From positions 182,838,001 to 182,902,000 of the forward strand of contig OX597815.1 in NCBI GenBank assembly GCA_951406725.2: a DNA stretch of 64,000 bases, written 5' to 3'. Origin of the DNA: Octopus vulgaris. Its lineage: Eukaryota. Below are positions 53 to 38,931 of the stretch, piece by piece. Every line of letters starts with the position of its first letter. Within the stretch, counting starts at the first letter, position 1. The notes under the pieces are model-generated. The model was not told the DNA's origin and searched no databases. It worked only from the letters and a program-made list of their open reading frames with translations. Made by a program: the position numbers and the translations under genes.

Positions 53-1348
53 ATGCTGAATCACGCAGGAGCCTACAATGATACAGGAAACACGTCATTG
101 CTCGAGTATTATGATGTTGCATTCAATGACACATCCTTTACAAAACAGGGTTTCACCTACGAACTAAAACACCCTAGTATTGGCATACTGCTTTCCGTTT
201 TTTCTTTAATTACTATTGTGGGAAACATTCTAGTTATTGTGGCAGTTACTCGGGAAATATATTTAAGGACCGTGACAAATTATTTCATTGTGTCTCTGGC
301 TGTAGCTGATCTTATGGTAGGAGGTATTGTAATGCCCTTCAGTATTAGTCACGAAATGACCAACAATGTTTGGCTGTATGGACCTATTTGGTGTGATTTG
401 TGGCATTCGTTTGACGTACTGGCAAGTACTGCTTCCATCATGAATTTATGTGTAATTTCACTCGACCGATACTGGGCGATTAATGATCCAATTTCTTATC
501 CAATTAGAATGTCTTCGAGTAAGGTAAGCCTTCTTATAACTGGAGTTTGGTTATGCTCGGCAACGATATCCTTCCCAGCTATTGCTTGGTGGCGAGCTGT
601 AACACCCCCAGACTTGCCGAGTAACCAGTGTATATTCACTGAAGACACGGGGTATTTAATATTTTCATCGTGTGTATCGTTTTACTGTCCCCTCATTATC
701 ATGCTATTCGTTTATTATAAAATCTACAAAGCTGCAGTGGCTCAAACGCGAAGTATCAAAATGGGATGCAAAGTAATGATGTCAAGTAGCATGGATGGAG
801 AGGCAATGACACTTCGGATGCACAGAGGAGGTCGGAAGCGGACAACACATGAAAATGACACAAGCGCTGAACGAAATGCAAGTGACAGTGATAGTGGCAG
901 TCCTGCTCACTTAGTTCGTGCTCAAGCAGGAGAACGGCCAACAAAATTTATCACAAAGCGCCTTAGACATTTTGCAATTAGTAAAAAACTAAGTAAGATT
1001 GCCAAAGAACAGAAGGCAGCAAAAACACTTGGCATTGTTGTAGGCGTTTTCATTCTCTGTTGGCTCCCTTTCTTTATAACTAATCTCCTATTAGCACTGT
1101 GCAAAACGTGCGTCGTTTATCCAGAAGTACTCTTTCCAGTTTTCACTTGGTTCGGATATATTAATTCAGGAATGAATCCAATCATATATGCTCTATCGAT
1201 GCGAGATTTCAGACGTGCATTTTCAAAGATTATTTTTATCTGTTGTCCTAAATATGGTGTCATTCGTCGCCAAACGGCTAATGATAACAATACTAGTACA
1301 AGCTTTACAGTGAGCACTGTTGACCGTACCGTTCCATATAAACTGTAA
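53..1348 (+). CDS. Dop1R2: Class A aminergic GPCR, invertebrate-type D1-like dopamine receptor (Dop1R2/DAMB/INDR-like), single exon, 431 aa
   Basis: Seven hydrophobic segments with GN (TM1), LAVAD (TM2), WHSFDVLASTASIMNLCVISLDRY (TM3 Asp plus DRY), FPAIAWWRA (typical of Dop1R2), TM5 FSSCVSFY serines, KEQKAAKTLG, CWLPFF and NPIIY. N-terminal N-glycosylation sequons and a C-tail Cys-Cys are present. An in-frame TGA at 44-46 fixes the ATG at 53. The orthology call is from remembered motifs, not a phylogeny. Confidence 0.9.
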   Translation: MLNHAGAYNDTGNTSLLEYYDVAFNDTSFTKQGFTYELKHPSIGILLSVFSLITIVGNILVIVAVTREIYLRTVTNYFIVSLAVADLMVGGIVMPFSISHEMTNNVWLYGPIWCDLWHSFDVLASTASIMNLCVISLDRYWAINDPISYPIRMSSSKVSLLITGVWLCSATISFPAIAWWRAVTPPDLPSNQCIFTEDTGYLIFSSCVSFYCPLIIMLFVYYKIYKAAVAQTRSIKMGCKVMMSSSMDGEAMTLRMHRGGRKRTTHENDTSAERNASDSDSGSPAHLVRAQAGERPTKFITKRLRHFAISKKLSKIAKEQKAAKTLGIVVGVFILCWLPFFITNLLLALCKTCVVYPEVLFPVFTWFGYINSGMNPIIYALSMRDFRRAFSKIIFICCPKYGVIRRQTANDNNTSTSFTVSTVDRTVPYKL

Positions 1349-12690: not shown

Positions 12691-12789
12691 AAATGTTTTT
12701 TAAAAAATAATTTTAGCATTTTCTACCTTGAGTTTTTTTCCATATACATATCAACCCGTGTGTTCCTTTTCAACCATATATATATATAG

Positions 12790-12985
12790 TTAATCCAAAC
12801 ATGAAAACACAAAGAGAAAACACAACAACGCGAGGACGTGGAACAAATATAGTATTATTAGACACTCAAGAAGGAAGGGATGAAGGAGGGTTTAACGTTT
12901 CGAGCGGAGCTCTTCGTCAGAAACATAGGAAAAGGAAAGATCCAGAGAAGGGAAGACGGAGGAATAAAAATCACCAACGGTGGAG
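12790..12985 (-). mobile_element. Short non-coding element with a minimal type-I hammerhead (12890-12924); second copy at 36352-36558
   Basis: Minus strand guuu-CUGACGA-a-GAGC ucc GCUC-GAAAC-GUU-aaac. The near-identical copy at 36.35 kb has the core decayed to CCAACGA. Both abut (TA)n. Confidence 0.7.
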
Positions 12986-36304: not shown

Positions 36305-36355
<51 letters not shown>

Positions 36356-36789
36356 TAATCCAAACATGAAAGCACAAAATAAACACAACAACGCCAGGAC
36401 GTGGAACAAATATAATATTATTGGGGAAAGAAGGAAAGAAGGAGGGTTTAACGTTTCGAGCGGAGCTCTTCGTTGGAAGCATAGGAGAAGGAAAGATCCA
36501 GAGAAGGGAAGACAGAGGGAAAAAAATCGCCAACGGTACACACGCGGTCACATCTTGAATATATATATATATATATATATAGATAGATAGATGAATAATC
36601 TTGTTGCAGATTAATCAAAAGTTTAACCGATACCTTGGTAGCAAAAATCACAGCAGAAGAAAGCACGGTCGGAGATAAAACCATTTGGTGTTGCAACCGT
36701 GCGTTGGTGCGGATAATTGAATTTTAATATTATTAGTGAATTGAAGAAATGGAGTTGAACGAAGATTGAACAGAATTCCTTTTATTGCA

Positions 36790-36869
36790 TTCTACACATG
36801 TTTCAAAAGCCACAATTTTCCAAATTCTGATTAAATAAGGATACCATATTGTGGCTTTCTCTTCAGGAA
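36790..36869 (-). ncRNA. Type-I hammerhead ribozyme with canonical core (minus-strand arm)
   Basis: Same motif, with a fully paired 12-bp stem II (GAAAGCCACAAU/AUUGUGGCUUUU, terminal G-U). Confidence 0.8.
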
Positions 36870-36969
36870 AAAAATAGGAATTCCGTTGGCAGAACAAAAC
36901 AGAACAGAGGCGCAGCAAAGCAATTTGAACGAAGAGGCTCTTTAAGAGCCCATGGCTGAACTTTTTTTT

Positions 36970-37049
36970 TTCCTGAAGAGAAAGCCACAATATGGTATCC
37001 TTATTTAATCAGAATTTGGAAAATTGTGGCATTTGAAACATGTGTAGAA
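36970..37049 (+). ncRNA. Type-I hammerhead ribozyme with canonical core (plus-strand arm)
   Basis: uuc-CUGAAGA-GAAAGCCACAAU...AUUGUGGCAUUU-GAAA-CAUGUG-UA-gaa. Predicted cleavage is 3' of 37046. Confidence 0.8.
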
Positions 37050-38931
37050 TGCAATAAAAGGAATTCTGTTCAATCTTCGTTCAACTCCATTTCTTCAATT
37101 CACTAATAATATATATATATATATACATATATATATAATGATGATGGTCGCTCCCGTCGATTTCGATTGTGTGGCTGTTTGAAGGAGGGGACTTAATGTT
37201 AAAGAGAGTAATAGAAAGGAAAACAAAGGCACTAAGAAGTTGCATGCCGGGATCTTGTCTCTGCTGTATCCGGTAATTATATGGTAATGCATGTTTTTCA
37301 TACATTTGAAGCTCACTTTTGTACTGCCCTTTGTAAAATCTCTATTCGCACGCGGAGTGATTGACTTGGGTCTCCGGTAACCATTTCCATTGTTTCTCGC
37401 ATGGCTAGTGGTAATATCCAGCGAATTCGTAGCATGCGGATCACTTTGCAAATACAGAGAATATTGTTGAAGCTGTTCCGAGTATCTCACATGACGTTTT
37501 GGAAGGGGATTCAGTTTTCCATGAATGTATACGTTGATGCTTGATTATGCAAATGGTTAACAAATCTTATGATATAAATTTAAGCAAAGTGTAACACCGA
37601 AAAGGTTTACTTATGTCAAGTTTACTTCCACTTCAATCTCAATGCCGAATTCGTTGAAAGCTGTTATATTTCTTTACTTAAGTGTATCAGTTGTAATTCA
37701 TGAGCGACATCTAATCGATAACAGCGTCAAATTCGATAAATCTGCAGAAGTTTTTTTTTTTCGGCGTTAAACATTGTATGACCATAGGGCTGTTCCACAG
37801 GCCTAAGTTTGCAGATGTTTTCTTTACTTCTCCCCTTATTACGAGTAGAGTTCACTGGTAAATGATGTTCTCCTCTCTTGTTGCTAGAGTCAACAATTTA
37901 CATTGGGACGAGTGGTGGAATTTACTTCTATAGTACTTTATTATGATGAACAATTGTAAAGTTTCTTAAATGTAAATTCATCAACTCGTTTCCGTTTCTC
38001 AAATGATTGATAGTGTATTTGAAACTTTATCACACAGACAATACTTATTGGAGAAGTTTCAAGAGAATTGTATGATTTATATTTGGTTATACATAAATGC
38101 ATTAAATTTATGCAATAATATAAGTATATACTTCCATAAATAAACATGTATCAGAATATTCCATGAGAAAATTCTTTTGATGATTTTATGATGAAATTAC
38201 AAAATTGCACAAATAGATGAAGATAAGAACGTGGTATATAAACAGATCTTATAACAGTATTAGTTTACTGTATGAGTGAAAGTTAATAGGCACAACATAC
38301 TTTGAAACCATACAATATTTAGGGAAAAGGCAATTAATGTTGAACACTTAATGCAGACTACGAAGTACAGGCTTTTGGATATTGGGTACAGATTCTTGGA
38401 TATTCAAGAAGTTAGTATATATATATTGTTGTTTGTTGGCTTTAAAGTAGCTTCTTCTGTAGGTATTTAGTCCGACAAAAACTGTTTGCAATTCTAAATG
38501 GATGCTTAATCTAAATGGATCAGTTTGACCAATCCCTTCCTTGGTACAAAGCTACGAAACTACTAATGTGATTTTATGAGATCCATACTTTTCCCCTTCA
38601 TCTGATATTTGATACACTCTTGGGATCTTCGATGCTATATTAATTGAGATAAAGTAGATTCTGGCTCTACTGTTAATGTTCGTGTAGGAATTGACAAGTT
38701 GGGAAAATCTGAACTTCTGGTTAAGTTCATGTAGCTGTATAGGATGATGATTGTTGTGGTATATGAAAAAGAAGATACATTTTTACCTTTGTTTCAGAAG
38801 CTGCGAGACTTGCGCTAGCATTAACTCCAAATGTGGCGGCGTACCATGATATTGTGAGTAGATTTTACTTATAAAATTTTAAGTTATTAGACGAATTTGT
38901 AGTTTATTTTTGATCGTATTATTTTTTATCA

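What the first reader, a model, noticed from the sequence alone, without database searches (positions are those of the whole stretch)
36590..37112. Young inverted repeat encoding a canonical hammerhead ribozyme on both strands
Seen: ~148-bp arms differing at about one base. Each arm has CUGAAGA, a 12-bp stem II, GAAA, a near-palindromic short stem III (ACAUGUGU), a GUA site and a 3-bp stem I. The unit lies between TA-rich microsatellites and has no ORF. Known: minimal type-I hammerheads with palindromic stem III mark Penelope-like element pLTRs and non-LTR retrozymes and cleave as dimers, and PLE insertions often carry an inverted pLTR at the 5' end. Inference: this is a recent non-autonomous ribozyme retroelement. 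Transcription from either strand would yield a hammerhead-bearing RNA, although a full read-through could fold back into long dsRNA that masks it. I know of no description of this family in cephalopods.
Basis: partly seen in the sequence, partly recalled or inferred. Interest (0 to 1): 0.85.

Follow-up and report, generated by a model that had tools for sequence, protein, structure and literature searches.

The report
Two-armed Penelope retrotransposon stub with hammerheads
This is a short, recent stub of a Penelope-like jumping gene whose end was inserted twice, back to back, so each strand carries a copy of its predicted self-cutting RNA; every two-armed insertion examined in this genome pairs one long end with one short end, which likely shows the element's enzyme starting at two fixed sites on one RNA.

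Summary
The inverted repeat and both hammerhead motifs are real (147/148 identical; the one mismatch breaks a stem II pair in the + arm). It is not a non-autonomous retrozyme. It is a 5'-truncated insertion of an autonomous Penelope-like element (PLE) related to the Hydra clade: a ~380-nt copy of the element's 3' end with its 'tail' (- strand) joined to a ~146-nt inverted copy without the tail (+ strand), inside (TA)n. Longer copies elsewhere carry a ~905-aa telomerase-like RT plus GIY-YIG ORF under purifying selection. A Hydra PLE with a hammerhead was already listed for Octopus bimaculoides; this is a different family. Two family-level results go beyond what I found in print. (1) All 64 inverted pairs examined combine one tailed and one tail-less arm (19 of 19 in an unrelated second family), and the arms share diagnostic variants (28 of 28), which points to two-site priming on one template. 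(2) The family has lost the linker zinc finger proposed to aim PLEs at microsatellites (44 of 44 homologues keep it), yet 155 of 162 ends abut (TA)n. Cleavage and expression are untested; no copy starts at the cut site.

The parts
36559..36582 (.). Left (TA)n flank (target microsatellite)
   Evidence: sequence; 155 of 162 family 3' ends abut (TA)n
36583..36962 (-). Long arm: 5'-truncated copy of the PLE 3' end, element positions -96 to +283 relative to hammerhead C3, ending at the distal (D, tailed) terminus
   Evidence: 97.4% over 380 nt to L034; end classes
36583..36730 (-). 'Tail' between proximal and distal termini (about 145-155 nt in the family); it is the 5' UTR of the next ORF in tandem copies
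   Evidence: in L034 and L036 this sequence runs on into the ORF start
36790..36869 (-). Type I hammerhead, - strand (C3 36866; predicted cut between 36793 and 36792); intact 12-bp stem II
36875..36962 (-).
36962..36965 (.). Inversion junction in a T tract (10 T here, 7 in the family); the same pair of break points, with the tail on the other arm, occurs in L011 and L028
36963..37112 (+). Short inverted arm: element positions -8 to about +135/138, ending at the proximal (P, tail-less) terminus
36970..37049 (+). Type I hammerhead, + strand (C3 36973; predicted cut 3' of 37046); A.A mismatch in stem II at 36983/37031
37109..37137 (.). Right (TA)n flank

Best explanation
The locus is a 5'-truncated, two-armed insertion of an autonomous Hydra-related Penelope-like retrotransposon in a (TA)n tract, likely made when the element's RT-endonuclease primed cDNA from both nicked target strands at two fixed sites of one RNA. 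Shown: the identity of both arms with the 3' end (pLTR) of an RT + GIY-YIG element; two fixed 3' termini (P at about +135, D at +283 to +294); one P and one D arm in every inverted pair; shared variants between the arms. Inferred (about 0.55): the GIY-YIG domain nicks both strands of (TA)n, one 3'-OH primes at D and the other at P on the same uncut transcript, both cDNAs stop early and are joined by microhomology. The hammerhead is the element's normal pLTR motif, predicted to cut only weakly, as a dimer or with protein help; it is carried along and was not cut in the templates that made these copies.
For: Parent element: ORFs of 885-908 aa in L036/L037, L042, L048, L051, L052 (translations 28-30); the model's best structural matches are telomerase RTs; dN/dS L048 v L042: RT 0.08, EN 0.22, linker 1.15. 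Termini: of 177 arms, 87 P, 75 D, 12 read on into a tandem ORF, 3 other; 155 of 162 P/D ends abut (TA)n against 3.5% of window positions. Pairing: 64 of 64 inverted pairs are P+D (binomial 5e-20 against 0.5); 19 of 19 in a second family with no pLTR similarity. Same source: 28 of 28 diagnostic-site comparisons agree within pairs (21 pairs), shuffled mean 48%, 0 of 2000 shuffles as high. In 34 of 64 pairs neither arm is contained in the other. 26 of 44 junctions overlap by 1-15 nt. PMC11167929 shows in vitro that a PLE protein nicks and extends both strands, starts at two internal RNA sites matching the tail, is predicted to be a dimer, and uses uncut RNA. None of 92 young-arm 5' ends lies at +71..+74, where cleaved RNA would start.
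Against: No biochemical or RNA evidence here. In 49 of 63 pairs the arms overlap, so one-molecule priming needs the D-primed enzyme to displace the other cDNA; two RNAs from the same source locus fit the shared variants equally. PMC11167929 saw no difference in start site between top and bottom strand and did not test pairing. The three long copies closest to the window's subfamily (L032-L034) have broken ORFs, so the source of the youngest copies was not found. One pair is a local duplicate (C5:45588534) and one locus holds two tangled pairs (C2:25190425), so about 62 pairs are independent; 29 of the 129 exact matches were not listed, and break points come from BLAST ends.
Confidence: 0.8

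Rival explanations
1. Same element, but both arms are primed at D (or one priming event is copied), and the endonuclease then trims the tail from one arm at the AT-rich P site while resolving the intermediate.
For: PMC8557442 attributes the tail to EN-mediated resolution. The P site is AT-rich, and PMC11167929 shows cleavage of AT-rich pLTR DNA. It would also give exactly one tail per pair.
Against: PMC11167929 maps both tail ends to RT start sites. In 14 of 63 pairs the D arm stops before P and the arms do not overlap, as expected for twin priming on one RNA. Unpaired copies end at P (21) as well as D (10).
Confidence: 0.25
2. The inverted arm arises by fold-back self-priming and copying of the first cDNA or of an antisense template.
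For: Proposed for Adineta PLEs from palindromes at junctions (PMC3846280). Some junctions here are palindromic (for example L005, L079). It explains shared variants between arms.
Against: In 34 of 64 pairs each arm holds sequence the other lacks, so neither can be a plain copy of the other.
Confidence: 0.1
3. A non-autonomous palindromic ribozyme element (retrozyme-like) that replicates as a unit and uses hammerheads on both strands.
For: Short ORF-less copies are the majority; L011 and L028 share the window's break points; retrozymes are proposed to derive from PLE pLTRs (10.64898/2026.07.22.740005).
Against: Continuous with an RT/EN ORF in longer copies; break points vary widely; in L011 and L028 the tail is on the other arm, so they are not copies of this unit; no tandem short units seen; only 27 of 63 pairs hold two whole hammerheads.
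Confidence: 0.04
4. The (TA)n targeting of this family is supplied in trans by the far larger zinc-finger-bearing Hydra family of the same genome.
For: Such a family exists (150 scored of 20849 candidates; finger intact in the 12 loci read) and also ends in (TA)n. No intact ORF of the youngest subfamily was found.
Against: No pLTR similarity between the families; RT regions only 40% identical; the finger-less ORF is under purifying selection across subfamilies whose own copies abut (TA)n.
Confidence: 0.12
5. Assembly fold-back artefact.
For: Near-perfect inverted repeats can be artefacts; no raw long reads were available.
Against: Arms are asymmetric, differ at one base, and 64 other pairs with different junctions follow one rule.
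Confidence: 0.01

Closest known systems
Hydra clade of C-terminal EN+ Penelope-like elements, incl. Hydra-1_Obim (Craig et al. 2021, PMC8557442)
   Same: Single RT + C-terminal GIY-YIG ORF; DKT; CxxC..E..N..CxH; no CCHH; canonical hammerhead near the 3' end with the same CUGANGAN..NGAA layout; (TA)n insertion; RT motifs match the Fig. S7 alignment by eye.
   Different: CxCX5C linker finger absent, replaced by a ~150-aa disordered linker, plus a ~75-aa insert in the thumb region; RWK reads RWL; ORF ~905 aa and unit 3.62-3.67 kb against generally <3 kb; hammerhead and protein differ from Hydra-1_Obim (12-bp stem II with 31-nt loop against 7 bp and 8 nt).
PLE insertion architecture: inverted 5'-truncated copy and optional tail (PMC3846280; PMC8557442 Fig. 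2; PMC11167929)
   Same: Inverted truncated copy at the 5' end, partial tandems, tail on one end, microhomology junctions; low-complexity inserts between RT and EN also occur in Adineta PLEs.
   Different: The papers call the tail 'optional' or 'often only at one end' and 30-40 bp; here it is ~145-155 nt (about 65-70 nt in family 2) and the one-tail rule is without exception in 64 + 19 inverted pairs.
Metazoan PLE hammerheads (Cervera and de la Pena 2014, PMC4209133)
   Same: Type I, short stem I, long stem II, palindromic short stem III, expected dimer use and low activity.
   Different: Unusually long loop II (31 nt); activity untested here.
Non-LTR retrozymes (10.64898/2026.07.22.740005)
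   Same: Short, ORF-less, type I hammerhead-bearing, PLE-derived sequence.
   Different: Defined there as tandem repeats with a hammerhead in each unit; this locus is inverted, not tandem, and is a plain truncation of an autonomous element.
LINE-1 twin priming (recalled, not from a call)
   Same: Two primers on one RNA giving a 5' inversion with microhomology.
   Different: Both start sites are fixed and internal here, and the arms usually overlap.

Membership tests
EN+ Penelope-like element | Telomerase-like RT | tested here: met
   Best structural matches of the predicted model are TERTs; no Pfam or PDB sequence hit
EN+ Penelope-like element | C-terminal GIY-YIG endonuclease in the same ORF | tested here: met
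   Aligned catalytic Y..Y.G, R/H, E, N positions with homologues and with Fig. S7 of PMC8557442; motif-level only, the domain was not searched by fold on its own
EN+ Penelope-like element | pLTR from partial tandems, inverted 5' copy, tail | tested here: met
EN+ Penelope-like element | Hammerhead in the pLTR | tested here: met
   Core pattern intact in 106 of 111 copies
Hydra clade | DKT motif; C-terminal CxxC and CxH; no CCHH | tested here: met
   (CPH in L031, L032, L036, L051, L052; changed in L048; frameshifted in L042)
Hydra clade | RWK motif | tested here: inconclusive
   RWL in P0001-P0003; RWR, RWA, RWD also occur among homologues
Hydra clade | CxCX5C zinc finger in the RT-EN linker | tested here: not met
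   0 of 31 linker translations have it (0-1 Cys; some rows are the same locus twice, two are chimeric); 44 of 44 homologues do (40 by pattern; 4 by eye)
Hydra clade | Generally <3 kb | tested here: not met
   Unit 3670 bp in L034, 3624 bp in the C1 array
Hydra clade | (TA)n insertion | tested here: met
   155 of 162 3' ends; 15 of 30 unpaired loci also at the 5' junction
Hydra clade | Phylogenetic placement with reference PLE clades | tested here: inconclusive
   Tree of 43 RT cores groups the family with P0005 (support 1.0), which keeps the finger; no named reference or outgroup was in the tree
Hammerhead ribozyme | Conserved core and three stems with covariation | tested here: inconclusive
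   19 copies: stem I 98%, stem II 94%, stem III 100% paired; 3 stem II pairs change on both sides, each in one sequence; copies are close relatives; Rfam no hit
Hammerhead ribozyme | Self-cleavage | not testable with these tools
   needs in vitro assay or raw RNA reads
Non-LTR retrozyme | Tandem short units, each with a hammerhead, no ORF | tested here: not met

The most novel reading that the evidence does not exclude
Inverted PLE insertions are obligatory two-site events: a protein dimer primes once at each of two fixed sites on one uncut RNA, using both strands of a doubly nicked (TA)n target, so the 'optional' tail is the record of which site each strand used. The 5'-end pile-up at -96 marks the RNA's start, making the window's long arm a complete strong-stop-like cDNA of the leader. 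And (TA)n targeting does not need the linker zinc finger.
Probability: 0.4. Interest if true: 0.65.

Novelty: new variant of a known kind. Interest (0 to 1): 0.43.

Why it matters
The locus itself is an ordinary stub. Its family is useful because the PLE integration mechanism is open: the only in vitro study I found (PMC11167929) showed two start sites and both-strand priming but not how they combine. An exceptionless one-tail rule with shared variants gives a sharp prediction for that assay, and a natural finger-less, still (TA)n-inserting family tests the hypothesis that the linker finger aims PLEs at microsatellites (PMC8557442).

Tried and rejected
Rfam scan: no hammerhead family. Free folding does not give the active fold: + arm z -1.0; constrained against free energy -28.8 v -33.1 (- arm) and -29.4 v -40.5 (+ arm) kcal/mol. 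An extended stem I in the - arm (12 more pairs) was considered as a full-length hammerhead; it is only 85% paired and broken in the older subfamily, so not claimed. Cleaved RNA as template: 0 of 92 5' ends at +71..+74; the 16 at +59..+70 (5.4 expected) fit stalling at stem II or the stem III palindrome. The -96 pile-up (10 of 92 at -97..-95, 1.35 expected) sits in an initiator-like word (motif recalled), but that word is not kept in the older subfamily and there is no consistent extra G, so 'transcription start' stays a guess. Expression: no RNA holder listed; the 4 of 24 runs laid were contigs and cannot show ends, strand or level. Pfam and PDB sequence searches gave nothing relevant. A first tree script failed; family 2 was left out of the second tree. 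Target-site duplications cannot be read inside (TA)n. Searches of earlier findings by sequence and by seven words were empty.

Full report
Observation. The repeat is as described: arms 36727-36874 and 36965-37112, 147 of 148 bases identical. Each strand carries CUGAAGA, stem II, GAAA, ACAUGUGU, GUA and a 3-bp stem I; the + cut site is 3' of 37046. The single mismatch (37031) falls in stem II of the + arm. Rfam reports no hammerhead, and neither arm folds freely into the active form; a read-through RNA folds into one long hairpin.

What it belongs to. The arm has many copies: 53 matches among 40 scored of 970 candidates, and 129 exact matches of a 33-mer, control 0. Walking upstream in other copies leads through a 3' UTR into a long ORF. 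Among 22 long loci, ORFs of 885-908 aa stand in L036/L037, L042, L048, L051 and L052; the three closest to the window's subfamily (L032-L034) are broken. The predicted structure (mean pLDDT 71.6, disordered at 489-563 and 632-778) matches telomerase RTs best. DKT, RW, the RT4/5 motifs and the C-terminal CxxC..E..N..CxH agree with the Hydra clade of PMC8557442 (section 11 read whole; supplement parts 2, 57, 58 of 59; passages). That supplement lists Hydra-1_Obim of Octopus bimaculoides with a hammerhead and (TA)n preference; its hammerhead and protein differ from ours by eye. RT and EN are under purifying selection and the linker is not (dN/dS 0.08, 0.22-0.33 and about 1.1 in the more distant pairs). 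So the family is autonomous.

Anatomy of the locus. With C3 of the hammerhead as 0, the cut is at +73/74 and the ORF starts at +330. The window holds a - strand copy from -96 to +283 (36962 to 36583; 97.4% to L034) and a + strand copy from -8 to about +138. The stretch 36583-36730 is the 'tail': in tandem copies it runs on into the next ORF.

Family-wide ends. I mapped 177 arms in 94 insertions from the loci (the 100 listed exact matches; 29 unlisted ones were not fetched). 87 end at P (+115..145), 75 at D (+278..300), 12 read on into a tandem ORF, 3 elsewhere. 155 of 162 P/D ends abut (TA)n (background 3.5%), and 15 of 30 unpaired loci have TA at the 5' junction too, so (TA)n is a target and not only a tail.

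The pairing rule. All 64 inverted pairs have one P and one D arm (38 PD, 26 DP). The search words lie upstream of P and are present in both classes, so P+P pairs would have been seen. About 62 pairs are independent. In a second, unrelated Hydra family found (linker finger intact; RT 40% identical; no pLTR similarity) 19 of 19 inverted pairs among 20 loci follow the same rule. Within pairs the two arms agree at 28 of 28 comparisons at two polymorphic sites (21 of 49 young pairs were informative; shuffled mean 48%, 0 of 2000 as high). In 34 of 64 pairs neither arm is contained in the other; in 14 of 63 they do not overlap, in 49 they do; 26 of 44 measurable junctions overlap by 1-15 nt, 14 have extra bases, 2 are blunt, 2 overlap more. 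[quoted passage not shown] I found no count or obligate rule in searches; the library lacks most subscription papers.

Mechanism. PMC11167929 (parts 1-2 of 4 read) shows that an anole PLE protein nicks and extends both target strands, starts at two internal RNA sites that bound the tail, is predicted to dimerise, and uses uncut RNA; its hammerhead cuts only with protein. The simplest reading of the rule is that one RNA is primed once at each site from the two nicked strands and the truncated cDNAs are joined by microhomology. This step is inferred (about 0.55). Trimming of one tail by the endonuclease remains possible; plain fold-back copying fails for the 34 non-nested pairs.

The hammerhead. 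The core pattern is intact in 106 of 111 copies. Across three subfamilies stems I-III stay paired, with mostly one-sided changes (G-U to G-C at the base of stem II; U-G to C-G making stem III a perfect palindrome) and few double changes; this is weak support, since the copies are close kin. PMC4209133 (passages) reports low activity and dimer dependence for such motifs. No young arm starts at the cut (0 of 92 at +71..+74), so uncut RNA was the template. Two whole motifs occur in only 27 of 63 pairs: the two-strand arrangement is a by-product.

The missing finger. All 44 homologues found (of 7999 candidates scored, lengths 499-1589) keep the linker CxC..C..C motif; none of 31 family translations does, the older subfamily keeping one cysteine and the younger mostly none. 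The nearest homologue keeps it, so the loss is derived. PMC8557442 links this finger to microsatellite targeting; this family inserts in (TA)n without it, unless it is mobilised in trans. Because a defining Hydra feature is not met, I file it as a PLE and as a Hydra-derived variant, not as a plain Hydra member.

Verdict. Real feature, known kind of insertion, new family variant. PMC13282606 (passages) counts recently active Penelope families in an octopus without naming clades or hammerheads. The bioRxiv retrozyme paper was read in part 1 of 5. Interest 0.43, carried by the pairing rule and the finger loss, not by the locus.

Noticed in passing
L103-L113, L114-L133 (for example L110, about 240 nt after the ORF stop): A much larger young Hydra family (717-aa open frames, linker finger intact) whose hammerhead core reads CCGAAGA, a U4-to-C variant, in the 10 of 11 family loci where the motif was in view. 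Whether it can cut is unknown.
   Followed up: partly
window 36352-36558 and 12788-12981: The repeat just left of the finding is another dispersed element (87% to the copy at 12788-12981). The 12920 copy carries a minimal hammerhead-like motif on the - strand; the copy beside the finding has a decayed core.
   Followed up: partly
window 27068 and 27359 (- strand); 42027 (+ strand): Further hammerhead-core pattern matches, the first two in a local duplication; stems not checked.
   Followed up: no
L036/L037 (G000:C1:119.51-119.53 Mb): Head-to-tail array of four 3624-bp units of the older subfamily, two with open 899-aa frames; a transcript would place hammerheads in tandem as a dimer needs.
   Followed up: partly
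L011 1280-1815, L028 1497-2044: Two other insertions use the same break points as the window (-96 and -7/-8) with the tail on the opposite arm.
   Followed up: yes
L034:1500-5950, run X12: Differences in this run's contigs are skewed to A>G (30 of 67, T>C 5), unlike the other three runs. Could be A-to-I editing of element RNA, but the run is only guessed to be RNA and has no matched DNA.
   Followed up: no
family position -97..-95 (window 36961-36963): 5' ends pile up here (10 of 92); possible RNA start or RT stop.
   Followed up: partly
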